6,856 nt of DNA from a virus (taxonomy: Duplodnaviria; Heunggongvirae; Uroviricota; Caudoviricetes), in the IMG/VR virus record IMGVR_UViG_2778261568_000010, positions 1-6,856 of that record, one strand, 5' to 3'. The translations under genes and the position numbers were made by a program. Below the pieces are notes generated by a model. That model was not told the DNA's origin, made no database searches, and saw only the letters and a program-made list of their open reading frames with translations. Shown here one piece after another: positions 1 through 6,856 of the stretch; the first letter of the stretch is position 1, and each line of letters opens with the position of its first letter.

Positions 1-153
1 ATGCGCAATGAAATAGCCATCAATCACCAGATGCTTCGTGCAGCACAGAACAAAGCAGTAATAGCCAGATTTATTGGTGATTCCAAAATGTGGCTTGAAG
101 CAAATAAAGCGATGAAATCAGCTATCAACCTTCCGTGGTATCGCAGGAAATGA
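1..153 (+). CDS. kil: Kil-like small protein (host cell-division inhibitor family), 50 codons as read; may start at internal ATG 31 or extend upstream of the window
   Basis: Translation MRNEIAINHQMLRAAQNKAVIARFIGDSKMWLEANKAMKSAINLPWYRRK contains IA-FIGD-KM--EA--A-K, which matches the lambda Kil N-terminal region as I recall it (TIATFIGDEKMFREAVDAYKK). Sits immediately upstream of the erf module, as kil does in P22. Window begins at the ATG, so the 5' end is unverifiable. Confidence 0.5.
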   Translation: MRNEIAINHQMLRAAQNKAVIARFIGDSKMWLEANKAMKSAINLPWYRRK

Positions 154-308
154 GTTTTACAGATAACTGGTCAGACGAAGAATTCATTCGTCAGATGAAA
201 GAATTAATCGGTAACGAAGGAGATATTCATGTCACTTGCAACCACAGTGAAGGAGAGCAAGTTACAGAGACGCATGTACACGCAGAAAGCTCTCTGGTAT
301 CGCCATAA
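150..308 (+). CDS. Small hypothetical protein (52 aa); positional analogue of P22 Arf (accessory recombination function) between kil and erf
   Basis: ATG at 150 overlaps the upstream TGA (ATGA), suggesting translational coupling. Translation MSFTDNWSDEEFIRQMKELIGNEGDIHVTCNHSEGEQVTETHVHAESSLVSP. Assignment is by position and size only; no sequence-level recognition. Confidence 0.35.
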   Translation: MSFTDNWSDEEFIRQMKELIGNEGDIHVTCNHSEGEQVTETHVHAESSLVSP

Positions 309-409: not shown

Positions 410-1015
410 ATGAGCAAAGAATTTTATGCAAGACTGGCAGCTATTCAGGAGAATCTGAACGCGCCAAAGAATCAGTACAACTCATTCGGTAAATATAAAT
501 ACAGAAGCTGCGAAGACATTCTTGAAGGCGTTAAGCCGTTACTGAATGGTCTGTTTTTATCAATCAGCGATGAAGTTGTGTTGATTGGTGATCGGTATTA
601 CGTGAAAGCCACGGCAACTATCACCGATGGCGAAAACAGTCATACGGCAACCGCACTAGCACGAGAGGAAGAAAGCAAGAAAGGAATGGATTCTGCACAA
701 GTTACGGGAGCTACAAGCTCTTATGCACGCAAGTATTGCCTCAATGGTTTATTCGGCATTGATGATGCGAAAGATGCAGATACCGACGAGCATAAACATC
801 AGCAGAACGCAGCAGCAAAGCAATCAAAACCATCACCTACACCTGGACAGGTTCTAAAAGCATTCACTGACGCAGCAATGCAGAAAAACACCGTGGAAGA
901 GCTTAAACAGGCGTTCGCCAAAGCGTGGAAGATGCTCGAAGGCACACCGGAGCAGCACAAAGCGCAGGACGTTTACAACATCAGACGAGACGAATTAGAA
1001 GGAGCGGCTGCTTAA
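410..1015 (+). CDS. erf: Erf-family single-strand annealing recombinase (essential recombination function)
   Basis: ORF-track frame 380..1015; I place the start at ATG 410 (MSKEFYARL...), since the track start at 380 is a TTG. The N-terminal half (NAPKNQYNSFGKYKYRSCEDILEGVKPLL...DRYYVKATATITDGENSH...QVTGATSSYARKYCLNGLFGIDDAKDAD) matches the conserved Erf domain as recalled from P22 Erf. Confidence 0.8.
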   Translation: MSKEFYARLAAIQENLNAPKNQYNSFGKYKYRSCEDILEGVKPLLNGLFLSISDEVVLIGDRYYVKATATITDGENSHTATALAREEESKKGMDSAQVTGATSSYARKYCLNGLFGIDDAKDADTDEHKHQQNAAAKQSKPSPTPGQVLKAFTDAAMQKNTVEELKQAFAKAWKMLEGTPEQHKAQDVYNIRRDELEGAAA

Positions 1016-1398
1016 TGGCACATTCGATTACTGTAAGACTAAACAAGCCCGCAAGAGAGTTTCAGGCCGGGGAAAATATCGGATTCAACATCCGTGCTGG
1101 CGTTCAGTATTACGATCGCCAGACAAAAAAGAAAGAATGGACAAACTACAGCGCCGTTGTATTTGCCAAGCCGGGAGCGCAAGCGGATTACTATCGTAGC
1201 GTTCTGGTTGAAGGAGGCATTGTAGAAATTACCGGAGAAAACATCAGAGTTGATGTTTATCAGGGGCAAAATGGTCAATCAATCACTCTTGAATTACTGA
1301 ATGCAAAGATTGGATTTGCAACTTCAGGAAACAGCCAACAGCAACAAAGTAGCAATCATCAAAATCATCCTGAATACGACGATTCAATTCCCTTCTAG
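1015..1398 (+). CDS. Phage SSB-like OB-fold single-stranded DNA-binding protein (127 aa) with host-SSB-like C-terminal tip
   Basis: ATG at 1015 overlaps the erf stop (TAATG). The pattern EW-NYSAVVFAKPGAQADYYRSVLVEGGIVEITGE-IRVDVYQGQNGQSITLEL parallels the E. coli SSB OB-fold core. A Gln/Ser-rich linker leads to a terminal EYDDSIPF, resembling the canonical SSB tip DDDIPF. Track ORF 925..1398 is the same frame with a spurious upstream extension. Confidence 0.6.
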   Translation: MAHSITVRLNKPAREFQAGENIGFNIRAGVQYYDRQTKKKEWTNYSAVVFAKPGAQADYYRSVLVEGGIVEITGENIRVDVYQGQNGQSITLELLNAKIGFATSGNSQQQQSSNHQNHPEYDDSIPF

Positions 1399-1421: not shown

Positions 1422-1718
1422 ATGCCAGCGCCTTTGTATGGTGCGGATGACCCGCGCCGCTGTTCCGGCAATTCCGTATCGGAGGTGCTGGATAAATTCA
1501 GAAAAAACTACGACCTGATAATGTCGCTACCGCAGGAAACGAAAGAGGAAAAGGAATTTCGTCATTGTATATGGCTTGCAGAGAAAGAAGAACGCGAGCG
1601 AATTTACCAGACATCAATCCGACCATTCCGCAAAGCCACATATACCCACTTCCCTGAATATATCGACCCGCGCCTGCGTAATTACCGCTCACGCTATGGC
1701 GCTATCAGTAATGACTGA
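1422..1718 (+). CDS. Hypothetical protein (98 aa), first gene after the erf/ssb module
   Basis: ATG at 1422 preceded by AAGGA at 1410-1414 (spacing 7). Charged composition (ETKEEKEFRHCIWLAEKEERERIYQ). No family recognised. Confidence 0.5.
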   Translation: MPAPLYGADDPRRCSGNSVSEVLDKFRKNYDLIMSLPQETKEEKEFRHCIWLAEKEERERIYQTSIRPFRKATYTHFPEYIDPRLRNYRSRYGAISND

Positions 1719-1728
1719 GGAATTTACC

Positions 1729-2019
1729 ATGAAAACAATGAAGCTAAACATCGTCCTCGGAAAATACGTTATTACCGGAACCAAACACGACCTGATTCTT
1801 AGTGAAAGAGGAATTATCAAAGAAGGCGAGAATGCAGGGAAAGAAACACTAAGCCGTATCGGTTATTACAGCAAGTTTGAGCATCTGGTTAAAGAATTAT
1901 GCAACCGTGAAATCCTGTTATCTCAGGCGCAGACGCTACAGGATATTCAGCAACATATCGAGAATTTAGGTGTGTCACTTAGCATGGCTATTGACCAGTT
2001 CGTGGAGAGTAAATCATGA
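1729..2019 (+). CDS. Hypothetical protein (96 aa)
   Basis: ATG at 1729 with GAGG at 1717-1720 (spacing 8); begins [18 protein letters not shown]. The track ORF 1576..2019 is the same frame with an N-terminal extension that would overlap the preceding gene. Confidence 0.5.
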
Positions 2020-2183
2020 GAGGACTTGCATACAATCCCGGCATTCTTCCAGCAGAAATGATTATTCGCCAACGCGTAAAGCCAATGCCATCGAGAGAGG
2101 AATTGCTTAAGAGAAATTCTTTTCCTTCAGTGAATCAAAACAAATATCTGAATGCGATGTGGCGCAAAGGAGGCAAGCAGTGA
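2016..2183 (+). CDS. Hypothetical small protein (55 aa), not in the ORF track
   Basis: ATG 2016-2018 overlaps the upstream stop TGA 2017-2019 (ATGA). Hand-translated: [55 protein letters not shown], stop TGA 2181-2183. Fills an otherwise gene-free gap in a densely packed operon. Confidence 0.35.
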
Positions 2184-2479
2184 GTGTATATCTTATTGAT
2201 AAACGTCGACGTGGGCAACAAATACCACCTGTAGGAATTCCGAATCACACATGGTTTTGCGTACTTGATATCGATGGTATGGATGCGTTGGTTGACACTA
2301 GTCATTACTGCGATACCGCAACAGCTACTACGGCGAAAGCAAAGAAAATGGCTGCTCTGATAGAAAACTGGACTCCACCTGATGGTTGGTGCAATGGGAA
2401 TGATCGAGATTGGCATGAAAAAATGAAGGGCTATATCTGCGATTTCTTACGTAAATGCAACGGCTTCAGGGTGATGTGA
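2180..2479 (+). CDS. Hypothetical protein (99 aa from GTG 2180; 106 aa if GTG 2159)
   Basis: GTG 2180 overlaps the upstream stop (GTGA) and follows AAAGGAGG at 2166-2173 (spacing 6). Several Cys residues ([24 protein letters not shown]). No family recognised. Confidence 0.45.
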
Positions 2480-2480
2480 C

Positions 2481-3017
2481 ATGAGCAAGATTGACTATCA
2501 GGCACTGCGTGAAAAGGCAGAGAAAGCAACGTGTGGGGTGTGTTCGCTCGAATATGGAGAGAGCCGATTTGATTGTGATGATGCGCTAATTCATCGTGAC
2601 GTTGTTGGATATCTTCCCATTTGCAGAATTGAAGGAGCGCATCCTGAAAGCGGTTTCGATGAAGATTTCCAAATTGAACAGCAGGCCAATGCTGAATTCA
2701 TCGCCGCAGCCAATCCGGCTACCGTGCTGGCACTACTGGATGAACGGGAAAGAAACCAGCAATACATCAAACGCCGCGACCAGGAGAACGAGGATATTGC
2801 GCTAACGGTAGGGAAGCTGCGTGTTGAGCTGGAAGCAGCAAAAAAGCGCATAGCAGAACTGAAAGCACGGGAGGTTGTACTGCCGCGTGCGCACGATGTT
2901 CACCCATTAGGGCCGCAGTCGGCGAAAATTTTTTGTGAGTTTCACCGGAGTATCGTGAACAGATGCGCCGATGAGATTCGCAAGGTTGGCGTCAAAGTCA
3001 GCATCAAGGGGAATTAG
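2481..3017 (+). CDS. Ead/Ea22-like phage protein (178 aa)
   Basis: Central segment ANAEFIAAANPATVLALLDERE is the signature I associate with the Ead/Ea22-like family of lambdoid early-left accessory proteins. It is followed by a predicted coiled-coil region (LTVGKLRVELEAAKKRIAELKARE). The N-terminus carries Cys at CGVC and FDCDD. Confidence 0.6.
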   Translation: MSKIDYQALREKAEKATCGVCSLEYGESRFDCDDALIHRDVVGYLPICRIEGAHPESGFDEDFQIEQQANAEFIAAANPATVLALLDERERNQQYIKRRDQENEDIALTVGKLRVELEAAKKRIAELKAREVVLPRAHDVHPLGPQSAKIFCEFHRSIVNRCADEIRKVGVKVSIKGN

Positions 3018-3021
3018 GGAT

Positions 3022-3528
3022 ATGGCTGAACTAACCAAAGAATGGCTGAAGCAAACTATCGCTGAATACGAAGCCAATCGTGATGAATTACCGTTTGGAC
3101 TGGATACCAACAGTGCCATTGGGCTTCAGGCGTTCAAGTTGGCGCTGGCATCGCTGGAAGCAGAACCGGTGGCGTGGAAGGTAACATTCACGCAAATTGA
3201 TCGTGAATATAACACGTTCACTGGTATGTATTCTGACAAAGCAGAAGTCGAACGGTGGGTGCGTCTGCATAAAGCATGTAATTTTCGGGCAGATATAACA
3301 CCGCTTTATACCGCCAAGCCAGTGCTGGTAACTCCGGATGGTTGGATAAGCTGTAGTGAGCGAATGCCGGATAAGTTAATTCCGGTAATGGTCATGTATG
3401 AAGACGGTGAGATGTGGTCTGCAATGTGGAATGGCAATCGCTGGGATGATGGCACCGAATATCCGGATCCGCACTCAGTTACGCACTGGCGTGAAATGCC
3501 AGCAGCACCGCAGCAGGAGGTGAAGTGA
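3022..3528 (+). CDS. Phage protein with C-terminal DUF551-type domain (168 aa from ATG 3022; 185 aa if ATG 2971)
   Basis: C-terminal DGWISCSERMPDKLIPVMVMYEDGEMWSAMWNGNRWDDGTEYPDPHSVTHWREMPAAP fits the DUF551 pattern (WIS..E..P...V.V.....W..G..W.....VTHW..MP) common in enterobacterial prophage early regions. The 2971 start would overlap the previous gene by 47 nt; 3022 follows AGGGGA at 3006-3011. Confidence 0.6.
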   Translation: MAELTKEWLKQTIAEYEANRDELPFGLDTNSAIGLQAFKLALASLEAEPVAWKVTFTQIDREYNTFTGMYSDKAEVERWVRLHKACNFRADITPLYTAKPVLVTPDGWISCSERMPDKLIPVMVMYEDGEMWSAMWNGNRWDDGTEYPDPHSVTHWREMPAAPQQEVK

Positions 3529-3806
3529 TGGACTCCTTCGCGAAATATACGATTATTGACTGGATAGCATTCCTTCAGGTTTTGCTCATCTGGTTTTATA
3601 TGGCTTACAGGAGTGGGCAGTGGATTGTCAGTGTAGCCTGTAGCAAGGGATGGCGTTGGTGGAACCGAAAGAATAAAAAAGCACTAGCCTTGGATTCGTT
3701 TTACGAAGCATTCAATCTTAACATCCTTCAGCCTGGTTCTGTCGTTGTAGTCACCACTCAAAGCGGCATGACCATTCAGATTCATAAACCAAAAGAGGAA
3801 AAATGA
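3528..3806 (+). CDS. Small predicted membrane protein (92 aa; 93 aa if GTG 3525)
   Basis: AGGAGG at 3514-3519 precedes the start. The N-terminal hydrophobic stretch YTIIDWIAFLQVLLIWFYMAY is long enough for one transmembrane helix and is followed by a basic patch (WRWWNRKNKK). The start overlaps the upstream stop (TGATG). Confidence 0.45.
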   Translation: MDSFAKYTIIDWIAFLQVLLIWFYMAYRSGQWIVSVACSKGWRWWNRKNKKALALDSFYEAFNLNILQPGSVVVVTTQSGMTIQIHKPKEEK

Positions 3807-3892: not shown

Positions 3893-3926
3893 CAATCCTC
3901 GCACTCGCGGGGATTTCTTTTATCTG

Positions 3927-3950
3927 AACTCGCTACGGCGAGTTTTGTTT
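3927..3950 (+). terminator. Candidate intrinsic terminator hairpin (stem AACTCGC / GCGAGTT, loop TACG, then TTGTTTT)
   Basis: Read directly from sequence at 3927-3950; it lies in the only sizeable intergenic gap of the operon (3893..3964). Confidence 0.4.
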
Positions 3951-3964
3951 TATGGAGATGATAA

Positions 3965-4132
3965 ATGCACTTCCGAGTCACAGGTGAATGGAATGGAGAA
4001 CCATTCAACAGAGTTATCGAAGCCGAGGACATCAACGACTGCTATAACCACTGGATGATATGGGCGCAGATAGCACATGCAGAAGTAACCAATATTCGAA
4101 TTGAAGAACTGAAAGAACACAAAACCGCCTGA
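3965..4132 (+). CDS. Hypothetical 55-aa protein immediately upstream of xis
   Basis: ATG 3965 with GGAG at 3954-3957 (spacing 7). Hand-translated: MHFRVTGEWNGEPFNRVIEAEDINDCYNHWMIWAQIAHAEVTNIRIEELKEHKTA. Its size and distance from xis match the unnamed 55-codon ORF that I recall upstream of xis in the lambda reference annotation (coordinates from memory). The stop TGA 4130-4132 lies in the loop of the next hairpin. Confidence 0.45.
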   Translation: MHFRVTGEWNGEPFNRVIEAEDINDCYNHWMIWAQIAHAEVTNIRIEELKEHKTA

Positions 4133-4145
4133 TGGCGGTTTTTTC
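4121..4145 (+). terminator. Intrinsic terminator-like hairpin (stem AAAACCGCC / GGCGGTTTT, loop TGAT, then T-run)
   Basis: Near-perfect 9-bp stem with a GC core followed by TTTTTT, read directly at 4121-4145. Confidence 0.55.
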
Positions 4146-4171: not shown

Positions 4172-4390
4172 ATGTACTTGACACTTCAGGAGTGGAACGC
4201 ACGCCAGCGACGCCCAAGAAGCCTTGAAACAGTTCGTCGATGGGTACGCGAGTGCAGGATATTCCCTCCTCCGGTTAAGGATGGAAGAGAGTATCTGTTC
4301 CACGAATCAGCGGTAAAAATTGACTTAAATCGACCAGTAACAGGTAGCCTTTTGAAGAGGATCAGAAATGGGAAGAAGGCGAAGTCATGA
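4172..4390 (+). CDS. xis: Excisionase Xis (lambda type)
   Basis: 72-aa translation MYLTLQEWNARQRRPRSLETVRRWVRECRIFPPPVKDGREYLFHESAVKIDLNRPVTGSLLKRIRNGKKAKS matches lambda Xis as I recall it over its full length; the 3' end overlaps int by 23 nt as in lambda. Confidence 0.93.
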   Translation: MYLTLQEWNARQRRPRSLETVRRWVRECRIFPPPVKDGREYLFHESAVKIDLNRPVTGSLLKRIRNGKKAKS

Positions 4391-5438
4391 GCGCCGGGAT
4401 TTACCCCCTAACCTTTATATAAGAAACAATGGATATTACTGCTACAGGGACCCAAGGACGGGTAAAGAGTTTGGATTAGGCCGAGACAGGCGAATCGCAA
4501 TCACTGAAGCTATACAGGCCAACATTGAGTTATTTTCAGGACACAAACACAAGCCTCTGACAGCGAGAATCAACAGTGATAATTCCGTTACGTTACATTC
4601 ATGGCTTGATCGCTACGAAAAAATCCTGGCCAGCAGAGGAATCAAGCAGAAGACACTCATAAATTACATGAGCAAAATTAAAGCAATAAGGAGGGGGCTG
4701 CCTGATGCTTCACTTGAAGACATCACCACAAAAGAAATTGCGGCAATGCTCAATGGATACATAGACGAGGGCAAGGCGGCATCAGCCAAGTTAATCAGAT
4801 CAACACTGAGCGATGCATTCCGAGAGGCTATAGCTGAAGGCCATATAACAACAAACCCGGTCGCAGCCACTCGCGCAGCAAAATCAGAGGTAAGGAGATC
4901 AAGACTTACGGCTGACGAATACCTGAAAATTTATCAAGCAGCAGAATCATCACCATGTTGGCTTAGACTTGCAATGGAACTGGCTGTTGTTACCGGGCAG
5001 CGAGTTGGTGATTTATGCGAAATGAAGTGGTCTGATATCGTAGATGGATATCTTTATGTCGAGCAAAGCAAAACAGGCGTAAAAATTGCCATCCCAACAA
5101 CATTGCATGTTGATGCTCTCGGGATATCAATGAAGGAAACACTTGATAAATGCAAAGAGATTCTTGGCGGAGAAACCATAATTGCATCTACTCGTCGTGA
5201 ACCGCTTTCATCCGGCACAGTATCAAGGTATTTTATGCGCGCACGAAAAGCATCAGGTCTTTCCTTCGAAGGGGATCCGCCTACCTTTCACGAGTTGCGC
5301 AGTTTGTCTGCAAGACTCTATGAGAAGCAGATAAGCGATAAGTTTGCTCAACATCTTCTCGGGCATAAGTCGGACACCATGGCATCACAGTATCGTGATG
5401 ACAGAGGCAGGGAGTGGGACAAAATTGAAATCAAATAA
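4368..5438 (+). CDS. int: Tyrosine site-specific integrase Int (lambda type, 356 aa)
   Basis: N-terminal arm-binding domain MGRRRSHERRDLPPNLYIRNNGYYCYRDPRTGKEF and a C-terminal catalytic domain with the R...K...HxxR...H...Y signature (TGQRVGDL, SKTGVKIAIP, HELRSLSARLY, LLGHKSDTMASQY) match lambda Int essentially residue for residue from memory. A few substitutions relative to the reference are possible but I cannot verify them. Confidence 0.97.
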   Translation: MGRRRSHERRDLPPNLYIRNNGYYCYRDPRTGKEFGLGRDRRIAITEAIQANIELFSGHKHKPLTARINSDNSVTLHSWLDRYEKILASRGIKQKTLINYMSKIKAIRRGLPDASLEDITTKEIAAMLNGYIDEGKAASAKLIRSTLSDAFREAIAEGHITTNPVAATRAAKSEVRRSRLTADEYLKIYQAAESSPCWLRLAMELAVVTGQRVGDLCEMKWSDIVDGYLYVEQSKTGVKIAIPTTLHVDALGISMKETLDKCKEILGGETIIASTRREPLSSGTVSRYFMRARKASGLSFEGDPPTFHELRSLSARLYEKQISDKFAQHLLGHKSDTMASQYRDDRGREWDKIEIK

Positions 5439-5511
5439 TGATTTTATTTTGACTGATAGTGACCTGTTCGTTGCAACAAATTGATAAGCAATGCTTTTTT
5501 ATAATGCCAAC
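5439..5511 (+). other. attL P' arm (phage side): arm-type Int sites and IHF H' site
   Basis: The reverse complement of 5439..5511 reads GTTGGCATTATAAAAAAGCATTGCTTATCAATTTGTTGCAACGAACAGGTCACTATCAGTCAAAATAAAATCA, i.e. the lambda attP P' arm as recalled. AGGTCACTAT-type arm sites lie at about 5441-5468 and an IHF-like TATCAATTTGTTG at about 5474-5486 (reverse strand). Confidence 0.85.
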
Positions 5512-5526
5512 TTAGTATAAAAAAGC
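5512..5526. repeat. att core (15-bp common core O) at the prophage/host junction
   Basis: TTAGTATAAAAAAGC is the exact reverse complement of the lambda/E. coli core GCTTTTTTATACTAA. The flanking host-side sequence (reverse complement CCGTTGAAGCCTGC) matches the E. coli attB B arm as recalled. Confidence 0.9.
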
Positions 5527-5572
5527 AGGCTTCAACGGATTCATTTTTCTATTTCATAGCCCGGAGCAACCT

Positions 5573-6856
5573 GTGAACACATTTTCAGTTTCCCGTCTGG
5601 CGCTGGCATTGGCTTTTGGCGTGACGCTGACCGCCTGTAGCTCAACACCGCCCGATCAACGTCCTTCTGATCAAACCGCGCCTGGTACCTCTTCTCGCCC
5701 GATTCTGTCGGCAAAAGAAGCGCAGAATTTCGATGCTCAACACTATTTTGCATCCCTGACACCAGGTGCGGCAGCGTGGAATCCTTCCCCGATTACCCTG
5801 CCTGCGCAACCTGACTTTGTTGTCGGCCCGGCGGGTACTCAAGGTGTAACGCATACCACGATTCAGGCGGCGGTAGATGCGGCAATTATCAAGCGCACCA
5901 ACAAGCGCCAGTATATTGCCGTGATGCCTGGTGAGTATCAGGGAACGGTGTATGTCCCTGCCGCTCCGGGTGGAATTACTCTGTACGGTACAGGTGAAAA
6001 ACCGATTGATGTGAAGATTGGGCTTTCCCTTGATGGGGGCATGAGCCCTGCCGACTGGCGTCACGACGTCAACCCGCGCGGCAAATATATGCCAGGTAAA
6101 CCAGCGTGGTATATGTACGATAGCTGCCAGAGCAAACGCAGCGACAGTATCGGTGTTCTCTGCTCTGCGGTCTTCTGGTCACAAAACAATGGCCTGCAAC
6201 TGCAAAATCTGACCATCGAAAACACGCTGGGCGATAGCGTAGATGCGGGTAACCATCCGGCGGTGGCACTGCGTACTGATGGTGACAAAGTGCAGATCAA
6301 TAACGTCAACATTCTCGGTCGTCAGAATACCTTCTTTGTCACCAACAGTGGTGTGCAAAACCGTCTGGAAACCAACCGTCAGCCGCGTACTCTGGTGACC
6401 AACAGTTACATTGAAGGGGATGTGGATATCGTTTCTGGTCGCGGCGCAGTGGTGTTCGATAACACCGAATTCCGCGTGGTGAACTCACGTACTCAGCAAG
6501 AAGCGTATGTGTTTGCACCGGCTACGCTGTCTAACATCTATTACGGTTTCCTCGCCGTAAACAGCCGTTTCAATGCTTCCGGTGATGGCGTGGCGCAACT
6601 GGGTCGCTCGCTGGATGTTGATGCCAATACCAACGGTCAGGTGGTGATCCGTGATAGCGCCATCAACGAAGGTTTTAACACAGCCAAACCCTGGGCTGAT
6701 GCGGTGATCTCTAATCGTCCGTTTGCGGGTAACACCGGCAGCGTTGATGATAACGACGAAATACAACGCAATCTGAATGACACTAACTACAACCGCATGT
6801 GGGAATACAATAACCGCGGCGTGGGTAGCAAAGTGGTTGCAGAGGCGAAGAAGTAA
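5573..6856 (+). CDS. ybhC: Host outer-membrane lipoprotein YbhC (pectinesterase-like, carbohydrate esterase family 8 fold; reported thioesterase activity), 427 aa
   Basis: GTG start with GGAG at 5563-5566. The N-terminus MNTFSVSRLALALAFGVTLTAC is a lipoprotein signal peptide with lipobox LTAC. The full-length translation matches E. coli YbhC as I recall it. Codon usage and GC content look host-like, unlike the AT-richer phage DNA to the left. Confidence 0.93.
   Translation: MNTFSVSRLALALAFGVTLTACSSTPPDQRPSDQTAPGTSSRPILSAKEAQNFDAQHYFASLTPGAAAWNPSPITLPAQPDFVVGPAGTQGVTHTTIQAAVDAAIIKRTNKRQYIAVMPGEYQGTVYVPAAPGGITLYGTGEKPIDVKIGLSLDGGMSPADWRHDVNPRGKYMPGKPAWYMYDSCQSKRSDSIGVLCSAVFWSQNNGLQLQNLTIENTLGDSVDAGNHPAVALRTDGDKVQINNVNILGRQNTFFVTNSGVQNRLETNRQPRTLVTNSYIEGDVDIVSGRGAVVFDNTEFRVVNSRTQQEAYVFAPATLSNIYYGFLAVNSRFNASGDGVAQLGRSLDVDANTNGQVVIRDSAINEGFNTAKPWADAVISNRPFAGNTGSVDDNDEIQRNLNDTNYNRMWEYNNRGVGSKVVAEAKK

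What the first reader, a model, noticed from the sequence alone, without database searches (positions are those of the whole stretch)
1422..2479. Four co-translated unknown small genes directly downstream of erf/ssb: candidate anti-defence or host-takeover cassette
Genes at 1422..1718, 1729..2019, 2016..2183 and 2180..2479 are packed with overlapping or near-overlapping stop/start codons (ATGA, GTGA), which suggests translational coupling. I recognise no family for any of them. In lambdoid phages this slot, just after the recombination genes in the early-left operon, is where anti-RecBCD functions sit (lambda Gam, P22 Abc1/Abc2) and where anti-restriction or other counter-defence morons accumulate. 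The 98-aa protein at 1422..1718 has a size and position like P22 Abc2. That is a positional hypothesis only.
Basis: inference. Interest (0 to 1): 0.6.

Follow-up and report, generated by a model that had tools for sequence, protein, structure and literature searches.

The report
Abc2 plus three phage accessory genes
The first of the four small genes is the well-studied phage protein Abc2, which hijacks the host's RecBCD DNA-repair nuclease, and the other three are separately inherited phage genes of unknown function, so this is an ordinary, already catalogued stretch of a lambda-like prophage.

Summary
The four ORFs are real, same-strand, tightly packed genes under purifying selection. They are not family-less. 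Gene 1 (1422-1718) is Abc2: Pfam PF11043 at 210 bits, 94% identical to P22 Abc2, residues 1-64 identical, Pro68 kept, and the protein is solved in complex with RecBCD (PDB 8b1t/8b1u). Genes 2-4 belong to DUF5405 (the phage P2 Orf83 family), DUF2737 (P22 Orf56) and DUF7739. The block is 96.9% identical to Shigella phage Sf6 genes 25-22, annotated in 2004.

The four genes are not a fixed cassette:
- All four occur together in 2 of 73 related viral loci and in 20 of 5,426 complete E. coli genomes.
- Each of genes 2-4 also occurs in unrelated phages that lack Abc2.
- The tight start/stop packing runs through the whole operon from kil to DUF4752, not just these four genes.

One regularity stands out. 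In lambdoid phages abc2 is almost always followed by DUF2737. However, the conserved DUF2737 core also occurs in about 480 virulent Guernseyvirinae phages without Abc2.

No function could be assigned to genes 2-4. Structure models gave only weak fold matches, and I found no literature on them. Interest is low; the finding is already known.

The parts
410..1015 (+). erf (context): Erf-family single-strand annealing protein, the recombinase that Abc2 serves
   Evidence: Pfam PF04404 at 151 bits and phrog_155. 74% identical to P22 Erf by tblastn.
1015..1398 (+). SSB-like gene (context): HK022/HK97 gp40 type, called 'SSB-1b', ending in ...YDDSIPF
   Evidence: 100% identical to HK022 gp40. phrog_44 at 101 bits, no Pfam hit. 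HK97 gp40 is classed as SSB-1b by predicted fold in PMC12315714.
1422..1718 (+). Gene 1 = abc2, the anti-RecBCD protein 2 that binds RecC and modulates RecBCD
   Evidence: PF11043 at 210 bits over the full length and phrog_656. 92/98 residues identical to P22 Abc2, with residues 1-64 identical and Pro68 conserved. PDB 8b1t/8b1u match at E 1.8e-57. pN/pS 0.13-0.49.
1729..2019 (+). Gene 2 = DUF5405 family protein (Sf6 gp24, ES18 gp45, phage P2 Orf83 family); function unknown
2016..2183 (+). Gene 3 = DUF2737 family protein (P22 Orf56, Sf6 gp23, HK022 gp38); a basic 55-aa protein of unknown function and the usual downstream neighbour of abc2
   Evidence: PF10930 at 109 bits. 77% identical to P22 Orf56. 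pI 11.0. Linkage to abc2. The conserved core also occurs in Guernseyvirinae.
2180..2479 (+). Gene 4 = DUF7739 family protein (Sf6 gp22); GTG start; function unknown
2481..3017 (+). Ead/Ea22-like gene (context): the next gene of the same tightly packed operon
   Evidence: PF13935 at 107 bits. It starts 1 nt after the stop of gene 4.

Best explanation
The interval covers the last gene of the recombination (Rec) module and the first three 'ea-region' accessory genes of the early-left (PL) operon. The operon belongs to a mosaic HK022/Sf6-like lambdoid prophage integrated next to ybhC in E. coli.

**Gene 1 is Abc2.** By homology to the characterised P22 protein, it binds the RecC subunit at the domains that recognise Chi. 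It leaves RecBCD helicase activity intact but alters the late, Chi-dependent steps. It also engages the host prolyl isomerase PpiB through Pro68. RecBCD is thereby redirected from destroying phage DNA ends to feeding the phage's own Erf/SSB recombination pathway. These mechanistic steps are shown for P22 Abc2 and inferred here from 94% identity.

**Genes 2-4** (DUF5405, DUF2737, DUF7739) are three separate small non-enzymatic accessory proteins. Each has its own distribution across phages. They are expressed with Abc2 only because they sit in the same read-through, translationally coupled operon. My inference, which is weak, is that each acts alone by binding a host or phage macromolecule:
- DUF2737 is a highly basic peptide with a roughly 28-residue conserved core.
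- DUF7739 is a compact alpha/beta protein whose fold resembles small inhibitor or immunity proteins.
- DUF5405 is a beta-meander plus helical-hairpin protein, often encoded next to phage replication or recombination genes.

None of the three is shown to touch RecBCD or any defence system.
For: **Abc2 identity.**
- establish the family match, the 94% identity and the PDB match.
- The mechanism comes from PMC9836394. Abc2 residues 3-52/66 are ordered on RecC, which falls inside the 1-64 stretch identical in the window. Pro68 is modelled in the PpiB active site.
- PMC12315714 summarises Abc2 as blocking activation at Chi.

**Operon context.**
- The order is kil, phrog_2123, phrog_1723, erf, SSB-1b, abc2, DUF5405, DUF2737, DUF7739, ead, DUF551, DUF4752, xis, int, ybhC.
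- No internal promoter-like or + strand terminator-like site was found.

**Known arrangement.** The block is 96.9% identical to Sf6 genes 25-22.

**Independent assortment.**
- Among 73 IMG/VR loci with near-identical abc2, the genes downstream are: DUF2737 alone in 42, DUF5405+DUF2737 in 13, DUF7739 alone in 9, DUF2737+DUF7739 in 6, all three in 2, none in 1.
- The full block is present in 20 of 5,426 E. coli genomes, while parts of it are present in 1,483.
- DUF7739 occurs in a Plesiomonas prophage that shows no PF11043 (Abc2) or ERF hit among its called genes.
- DUF5405 occurs in P2-like phages between orf82 and gene A, in phages with ~70-kb genomes, and in the 163-kb Morganella phage MP1. 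It also follows an Abc1 homologue in a GamL-RecT Klebsiella prophage.
- DUF2737 occurs in virulent Jerseyvirus and Kagunavirus genomes between the lysis and terminase genes.

**Real genes.** pN/pS is 0-0.5 for all four.
Against: - Nothing here tests function. The Abc2 mechanism is transferred from P22 by homology, and the C-terminal 30 residues differ at several positions.
- The near-universal abc2-DUF2737 adjacency in lambdoid phages could reflect a functional tie that the 'independent genes' reading understates.
- The 80-locus samples are the best-scoring hits, with query-protein identity of 96-100%. They are therefore related by descent and are not independent observations.
Confidence: 0.8

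Rival explanations
1. abc2 and DUF2737 (P22 orf56) form a two-gene functional unit. DUF2737 would assist Abc2, or protect the phage from a consequence of tampering with RecBCD, for example a defence that senses RecBCD inhibition.
For: - DUF2737 follows abc2 in 63 of 73 loci. In 9 more a frameshifted remnant sits in the same place, giving 72 of 73.
- In the reverse direction, 55 of 74 DUF2737 loci have abc2 as the nearest recognised upstream gene, and 16 more have DUF5405 there, with abc2 presumed further upstream. Together that is 71 of 74.
- The pair persists where Abc2 has diverged to 63-77% identity (Stx2 phage, UAB_Phi20, ES18), and also in P22 and HK022.
- Where directly adjacent, the spacer is about 10 nt.
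- In the phage collection, 225 records hold a full-length Abc2 and 221 hold a full-length DUF2737. The counts for Stx1a-, Stx2a- and Stx2c-converting phages are identical in both searches.
Against: - The DUF2737 core occurs in about 480 records, those listed being virulent Guernseyvirinae, that are absent from the Abc2 hit list.
- Abc2 forms its complex with RecBCD without Orf56 (PMC9836394). Going by the title of Murphy 2000, cited, it also promotes recombination with lambda Bet.
- DUF5405 is inserted between the two genes in about 20% of loci.
- Nine loci carry only a broken remnant, so the gene is dispensable.
- In an Stx2 phage, Abc2 is 63% identical to the window protein but DUF2737 is 89% identical. 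That implies a recombination joint between the two genes.
- Linkage by descent within one phage group would give the same counts.
Confidence: 0.15
2. The four genes are a co-adapted anti-defence or host-takeover cassette that acts together.
For: - The genes are tightly packed and translationally coupled.
- The same four-gene order is conserved at about 97% identity in Sf6 and in 20 E. coli genomes.
- The position is in an accessory region known to hold counter-defence genes: Abc2, and Abc1 with a broad counter-defence phenotype (Silas et al. 2023).
Against: - All four occur together in only 2 of 73 loci and 20 of 5,426 genomes.
- Every subset occurs, and each of genes 2-4 is found in unrelated phage types without the others.
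- The packing is a property of the whole operon, not of this block.
- No hit to any defence-related library.
Confidence: 0.04
3. Gene 2 is a replication initiation protein, as the PHROG 154 label and some phage annotations state.
For: - phrog_154 is labelled 'replication initiation protein', and the same label appears on ES18 gp45, phiKT and KpCHEMY26.
- In P2-like phages the homologue Orf83 sits beside the replication nickase gene A.
Against: - Pfam and RefSeq both call it DUF5405.
- I found no experimental paper.
- A closely related prophage carries replication protein O in the early-right operon.
- Here the gene lies in the early-left operon, and it is absent from most relatives.
Confidence: 0.05
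4. Some of the ORFs are chance reading frames and not genes.
For: They are short (55-99 aa). One uses a GTG start, and a 93-aa antisense ORF overlaps gene 4 at 2135-2416.
Against: - pN/pS is 0-0.5.
- Homologues at 43-97% identity occur across Escherichia, Salmonella, Klebsiella, Providencia, Serratia and Plesiomonas, with conserved lengths and start positions.
- All four have Pfam and PHROG family matches and Shine-Dalgarno-like motifs.
Confidence: 0.01

Closest known systems
Shigella phage Sf6 genes 25-24-23-22 (Casjens et al. 2004 annotation; NC_005344)
   Same: Same four genes in the same order and spacing. 96.9% nucleotide identity over 1,079 bp and 96-100% protein identity.
   Different: - Sf6 has a canonical SSB plus an extra 159-aa gene (gp26) between erf and abc2, whereas the window has the HK022-type 127-aa SSB-1b.
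- Sf6 uses a different integrase and attachment site. The window prophage has a lambda-type Int and lies next to ybhC.
Salmonella phage P22 abc region (erf-abc1-abc2-orf56-eaE)
   Same: - Abc2 is 94% identical and Orf56 77% identical.
- The gene order erf, abc2, DUF2737 and then ea genes in the PL operon is the same.
   Different: - P22 has Abc1 where the window has SSB-1b.
- P22 lacks DUF5405 and DUF7739.
- Gene 2 shows no similarity to Abc1.
Lambda Gam / phi80 GamL (the other lambdoid RecBCD inhibitors)
   Same: Same operon neighbourhood and the same target enzyme.
   Different: - The proteins are unrelated and work differently. Gam blocks the DNA entry site and all RecBCD activities, whereas Abc2 binds RecC and leaves the helicase active (PMC9836394, PMC12315714).
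- No window protein hits a Gam or GamL family.
Phage P2 Orf83 (DUF5405)
   Same: Homologous to gene 2: 33.7% identity over 92% of the length, E 1e-8, and the same Pfam family.
   Different: It sits in the P2 early replication operon between the TraR-like orf82 and gene A, not after a recombination module. Its function is also unknown.
Neisseria DMP12 DNA mimic / E. coli YfbM / Burkholderia CdiI immunity protein (fold neighbours of gene 4)
   Different: - 8-11% identity, and no sequence-profile match to any PDB chain.
- Gene 4 is not acidic (pI 7.6, 13 basic against 12 acidic residues), so a DNA-mimic mechanism is unlikely.
- Only 1 of 5 models was confident.

Membership tests
Abc2 / Anti-RecBCD protein 2 (Pfam PF11043) | Full-length sequence match above the family gathering score | tested here: met
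   210 bits against a cut-off of 25, residues 1-98 on profile positions 1-97. phrog_656 'abc2 anti-RecBCD' at 190 bits.
Abc2 / Anti-RecBCD protein 2 (Pfam PF11043) | Conservation of the RecC-binding helical region (residues 3-52/66 are ordered on RecC in 8b1t/8b1u) | tested here: met
   Residues 1-64 are identical to P22 Abc2; the first difference is A65S. The extent of the ordered region is from PMC9836394.
Abc2 / Anti-RecBCD protein 2 (Pfam PF11043) | Pro68, the residue that engages host PpiB | tested here: met
   The I-R-P motif at positions 66-68 is conserved. Its role is described in PMC9836394.
Abc2 / Anti-RecBCD protein 2 (Pfam PF11043) | Location in the PL operon just downstream of an Erf-type recombinase | tested here: met
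   The order erf 410-1015, SSB-1b 1015-1398, abc2 1422-1718 matches P22, HK022, Sf6 and ES18.
Abc2 / Anti-RecBCD protein 2 (Pfam PF11043) | Physical binding to RecC and modulation of RecBCD activity | not testable with these tools
   Needs co-purification or genetic assays.
P22 Abc1 (considered for gene 2 and for the gene between erf and abc2) | Sequence similarity to P22 Abc1 (94 aa, with a C-terminal helix-turn-helix) | tested here: not met
   Gene 2 against Abc1: E 2.3 over 15 residues. SSB-like gene against Abc1: no alignment. A true Abc1 homologue, by contrast, scores 43% identity at E 1e-29.
DUF5405 (Pfam PF17399; P2 Orf83 family), gene 2 | Match above the gathering score and homology to P2 Orf83 | tested here: met
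   25.6 bits against a cut-off of 21.6. tblastn to P2 orf83 gives 33.7% identity at E 1e-8. BFVD top hits are DUF5405 proteins with TM 0.76-0.86.
DUF2737 (Pfam PF10930; P22 Orf56 family), gene 3 | Match above the gathering score and homology to P22 Orf56 | tested here: met
   109.2 bits against a cut-off of 25. 77% identity to P22 Orf56.
DUF7739 (Pfam PF24881), gene 4 | Match above the gathering score | tested here: met
   63.4 bits against a cut-off of 27. RefSeq annotates close homologues as 'DUF7739 domain-containing protein'.
DNA-mimic inhibitors (DMP12 / Ocr-like), considered for gene 4 | Strongly acidic surface that imitates DNA | tested here: not met
Lambda Gam / GamL RecBCD inhibitors | Sequence match to a Gam or GamL family | tested here: not met
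   No such Pfam or PHROG hit for any window protein.
Co-inherited multi-gene system (cassette) | Component genes are gained and lost together across genomes | tested here: not met
   All four occur together in 2 of 73 loci, and every subset is observed. The full block is in 20 of 5,426 genomes, against 1,483 genomes that carry parts of it.

The most novel reading that the evidence does not exclude
DUF2737 (P22 Orf56) would be an unrecognised host-targeting peptide. Its roughly 28-residue core (P-x-P-[ST][10 protein letters not shown] ... N-K-Y-L-N) is conserved between temperate lambdoid phages and virulent Guernseyvirinae. In lambdoid phages it has stayed glued to abc2 because it counters a host response to RecBCD hijacking, for example a guard-type defence. 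On the same reading, DUF7739, with its inhibitor/immunity-like fold, and DUF5405 could also be new counter-defence proteins.
Probability: 0.12. Interest if true: 0.55.

Novelty: already known. Interest (0 to 1): 0.15.

Why it matters
It matters little as a discovery. Abc2 and this exact gene order have been in the databases since the Sf6 and P22 genome papers, and all four proteins have curated family entries.

The practical value is corrective: the 'unknown' 98-aa gene should simply be annotated abc2.

A modest lead remains. Three small, conserved, uncharacterised proteins sit in a region already shown to hold counter-defence genes. Of these, DUF2737 is present in more than 700 sequenced enterobacterial phages, is almost inseparable from abc2 in lambdoid phages, and has never been studied. 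Testing it would be cheap and could add a factor to the RecBCD/phage-recombination story.

Tried and rejected
- **Gene 2 as Abc1.** No similarity.
- **Sequence searches of genes 2-4 against PDB.** Single sequences and profiles both gave nothing.
- **NCBIfam and PADLOC.** No hits for any of the four genes.
- **Rfam on the whole window.** No hits.
- **DMP12-type DNA mimicry for gene 4.** Rejected on charge.
- **AFDB50 Foldseek search.** The library was unavailable.
- **Profile search of DUF7739 against 1.84 billion representatives.** It found 72 small clusters. The few long hits are low-complexity matches or chimeric gene calls (for example a lambda P fusion), not informative domain fusions.
- **Literature.** No paper mentions DUF5405 or DUF7739. 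One phage-therapy paper mentions DUF2737 in passing. No paper addresses the function of P2 orf83.
- **Supplements of the Silas et al. accessory-gene screens.** I searched them for peptide fragments of genes 2-4 and found nothing. Many of the spreadsheets are not held, or are cut when stored.
- **Genome-contig scan with DUF2737.** It gave only 7 loci and was not informative.
- **'Not real genes'.** Rejected on pN/pS and on the homologues.

Full report
**1. The observation**

The window carries a run of same-strand genes. ORFs lie at 1422-1718 (98 aa), 1729-2019 (96 aa, the ATG inside a longer TTG-initiated frame), 2016-2183 (55 aa) and 2180-2479 (99 aa, GTG). Each start has a Shine-Dalgarno-like motif 6-10 nt upstream. 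No promoter-like or + strand terminator-like site falls inside the interval, and Rfam finds nothing.

The ORFs are real genes. pN/pS is 0.0-0.19 against Sf6 and 0.27-0.49 against ES18, UAB_Phi20 and an Stx2 phage. Full-length homologues at 43-97% identity occur in several enterobacterial genera.

Two parts of the observation fail. First, the tight packing is not special to these four genes. Every junction from kil (ends 153) through DUF4752 (ends 3806) is between -80 and +23 nt. Second, the genes are not family-less.

**2. What the genes are**

Gene 1 is Abc2.
- It matches Pfam PF11043 (Anti-RecBCD_p2) at 210 bits over its whole length, and phrog_656 'abc2 anti-RecBCD'.
- It is 92/98 identical to P22 Abc2. 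Residues 1-64 are identical and Pro68 is kept.
- It matches the Abc2 chain of PDB 8b1t/8b1u at E 1.8e-57.

Gene 2 matches DUF5405 (25.6 bits, cut-off 21.6) and phrog_154. Gene 3 matches DUF2737 (109 bits) and is 77% identical to P22 Orf56. Gene 4 matches DUF7739 (63 bits).

The whole block is 96.9% identical to Shigella phage Sf6 genes 25, 24, 23 and 22. RefSeq annotates it in E. coli prophages as 'phage anti-RecBCD protein, DUF5405, DUF2737, DUF7739'.

**3. Context**

The window reads, in order:

| Coordinates | Gene |
|---|---|
| 1-153 | kil |
| 150-308 and 229-399 | two overlapping small genes of the HK97 42.1/42 type |
| 410-1015 | erf |
| 1015-1398 | 127-aa SSB-like gene |
| 1422-2479 | the four genes of the finding |
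| 2481-3017 | Ead/Ea22-like |
| 3022-3528 | DUF551 |
| 3525-3806 | DUF4752 |
| 4172-4390 | xis |
| 4368-5438 | lambda-type int |
| 5573-6856 | host ybhC |

The SSB-like gene is 100% identical to HK022 gp40. HK97 gp40 is classed as 'SSB-1b' in PMC12315714.

This is the promoter-distal half of the PL operon of a mosaic lambdoid prophage. In P22 the order is erf-abc1-abc2-orf56-eaE. In HK022 it is erf-gp40-abc2-gp38(DUF2737)-Ea22-like. Gene 2 is not Abc1.

**4. Is it a cassette?**

No.
- Among 73 IMG/VR loci with near-identical abc2 and at least 1.5 kb downstream, the genes that follow are: DUF2737 alone in 42, DUF5405+DUF2737 in 13, DUF7739 alone in 9, DUF2737+DUF7739 in 6, all three in 2, none in 1.
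- In 5,426 complete E. coli genomes the full block is present in 20, while parts of it occur in 1,483.
- Among 50,697 phage records only the two Sf6 entries hold the full block.

Each of genes 2-4 also lives elsewhere.
- DUF7739 sits in the early-left operon of a Plesiomonas prophage that shows no Abc2 or Erf family hit. It also occurs in a few phages with ~35-kb and ~95-kb genomes. It is found in 21 phage records in all, and in only 72 clusters at 50% identity among 1.84 billion representatives.
- DUF5405 is the phage P2 Orf83 family, at 33.7% identity and E 1e-8. It occurs in 160 phage records, including P2-like phages (between orf82 and gene A), phages with ~70-kb genomes and the 163-kb Morganella phage MP1. 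It lies near int in a Providencia prophage. In Klebsiella oxytoca prophages it directly follows an Abc1 homologue behind GamL-RecT.
- DUF2737 is covered in the next section.

**5. The abc2-DUF2737 pair**

This is the one regularity worth noting.
- DUF2737 follows abc2 in 63 of 73 loci. In 48 of these it is directly adjacent, and in 15 DUF5405 lies between the two.
- The nine 'missing' cases carry a frameshifted remnant (MRGLA* ... [27 protein letters not shown]) in the same place.
- In the reverse direction, 71 of 74 DUF2737 loci have abc2 or DUF5405 immediately upstream.
- The pair persists in P22, HK022, ES18, UAB_Phi20 and Stx2 phages, where Abc2 is only 63-77% identical to the window protein.
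- The phage collection holds 225 full-length Abc2 records and 221 full-length DUF2737 records, with identical counts in the Stx-phage categories.

Several facts argue against a functional tie.
- The conserved DUF2737 core is also present in about 480 further records. Those listed are virulent Guernseyvirinae (Jerseyvirus, Kagunavirus). In the two examined, the 51-52-aa gene sits among tiny ORFs between the lysis and terminase genes, and these phages are absent from the Abc2 hit list.
- Abc2 forms its RecBCD complex without Orf56 (PMC9836394).
- In the Stx2 phage, Abc2 is 63% identical but DUF2737 is 89% identical, so a recombination joint lies between them.
- The remnants show that the gene is dispensable.

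I therefore rate 'functional partner of Abc2' at about 0.15 and treat co-descent as the default explanation.

**6. Mechanism**

For gene 1 the mechanism is transferred from P22 Abc2 (PMC9836394; PMC12315714).
- It does not stop unwinding.
- It is thought to block Chi activation and/or RecA loading, and to favour loading of the phage annealase.
- Its Pro68 sits in the active site of host PpiB.

All residues ordered on RecC are identical here, so the transfer is safe as an inference, but it was not tested.

For genes 2-4 only weak structural inference is available.
- Gene 3 is a very basic (pI 11.0), proline-rich 55-mer with a roughly 28-residue invariant-rich core. That is consistent with a peptide that docks on a conserved enterobacterial target.

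I found no paper that addresses any of the three. The accessory-gene screens of Silas et al. used Abc2 as a control. They found that Abc1 triggers a P4-encoded abortive response and has broad counter-defence activity. I could not find genes 2-4 in the text or in the supplements held.

**7. Comparison and verdict**

The claims 'unknown genes' and 'cassette' are not supported. The arrangement is already known (Sf6 genes 25-22), and all four proteins sit in curated families. The residual interest lies in the three uncharacterised DUF proteins, chiefly DUF2737.

Novelty: already known. Interest: 0.15.

Noticed in passing
window 150-308 and 229-399: Two conserved small genes upstream of erf overlap by 80 nt in different reading frames. 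They are phrog_2123 (52 aa, acidic) and phrog_1723 (56 aa), and Sf6 gp30/gp29 and HK022 42.1/42 overlap in the same way. The first shares only the motif SDEEFI with the N-terminus of P22 Arf. Both PHROGs are labelled 'recombinase' without evident basis.
   Followed up: partly
window 1015-1398: The 127-aa 'ssb' has no Pfam SSB hit, and TIGR00621 scores only 16 bits. It is 100% identical to HK022 gp40, and HK97 gp40 is classed SSB-1b by predicted fold. It ends in ...EYDDSIPF, which by my recollection resembles the E. coli SSB C-terminal tip (DDDIPF) that recruits host partner proteins. It occupies the slot where P22 has Abc1.
   Followed up: partly
L181 3441-3596 (Salmonella phage SE2 gp24); L182 3441-3599 (Escherichia phage SZH-1 gp10): The conserved core of DUF2737 (P-x-P-[ST][10 protein letters not shown]..N-KYLN) occurs in about 480 further phage records. 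Those listed are virulent Guernseyvirinae. In the two examined, the gene lies in a cluster of tiny ORFs between the lysis and terminase genes, and these phages do not appear in the Abc2 hit list.
   Followed up: partly
L089 4033-7195 (Klebsiella oxytoca prophage): An Abc1 homologue (43% identical to P22 Abc1) lies in a GamL-RecT-Gp157 recombination module, not an Erf/Abc2 one. It is followed directly by DUF5405, and a TraR-like zinc-finger gene lies two genes further on. P2 likewise has its TraR-like orf82 next to orf83.
   Followed up: partly
L033 2702-3315 and eight similar IMG/VR loci: Where DUF2737 seemed absent after abc2, a frameshifted remnant is present (MRGLA-stop, then the C-terminal core in another frame). 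It is followed by an EaE-like gene and then DUF7739.
   Followed up: yes
L179 2501-2975 (Stx2a-converting phage Stx2_EH1965): Abc2 is only 63% identical to the window protein, while the adjacent DUF2737 is 89% identical. This implies a mosaic joint in the short spacer between them. No erf homologue was detected upstream of abc2 in the 2.5 kb examined.
   Followed up: no
window 3894-3945 and 4121-4142: Two tandem + strand terminator-like hairpins follow DUF4752. A strong hairpin that is symmetric on both strands (AAAACCGCC-ATCA-GGCGGTTTT) sits between the 55-aa gene 3965-4132 (phrog_676) and xis.
   Followed up: no
window 5439-5534: The sequence after int reads as the reverse complement of the lambda attP P' arm joined to the core, TTTATAC-type, followed by host sequence (...cttagtataaaaaagcaggcttca). 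That would be a lambda-type att junction beside ybhC. I recognised it from memory of the lambda att sequence and did not test it with a tool.
   Followed up: no
window 2135-2416, minus strand: A 93-aa antisense ORF lies almost wholly inside gene 4. I take it to be a chance frame, since the sense gene has the homologues, the Pfam match and the purifying-selection signal. I did not examine it further.
   Followed up: no
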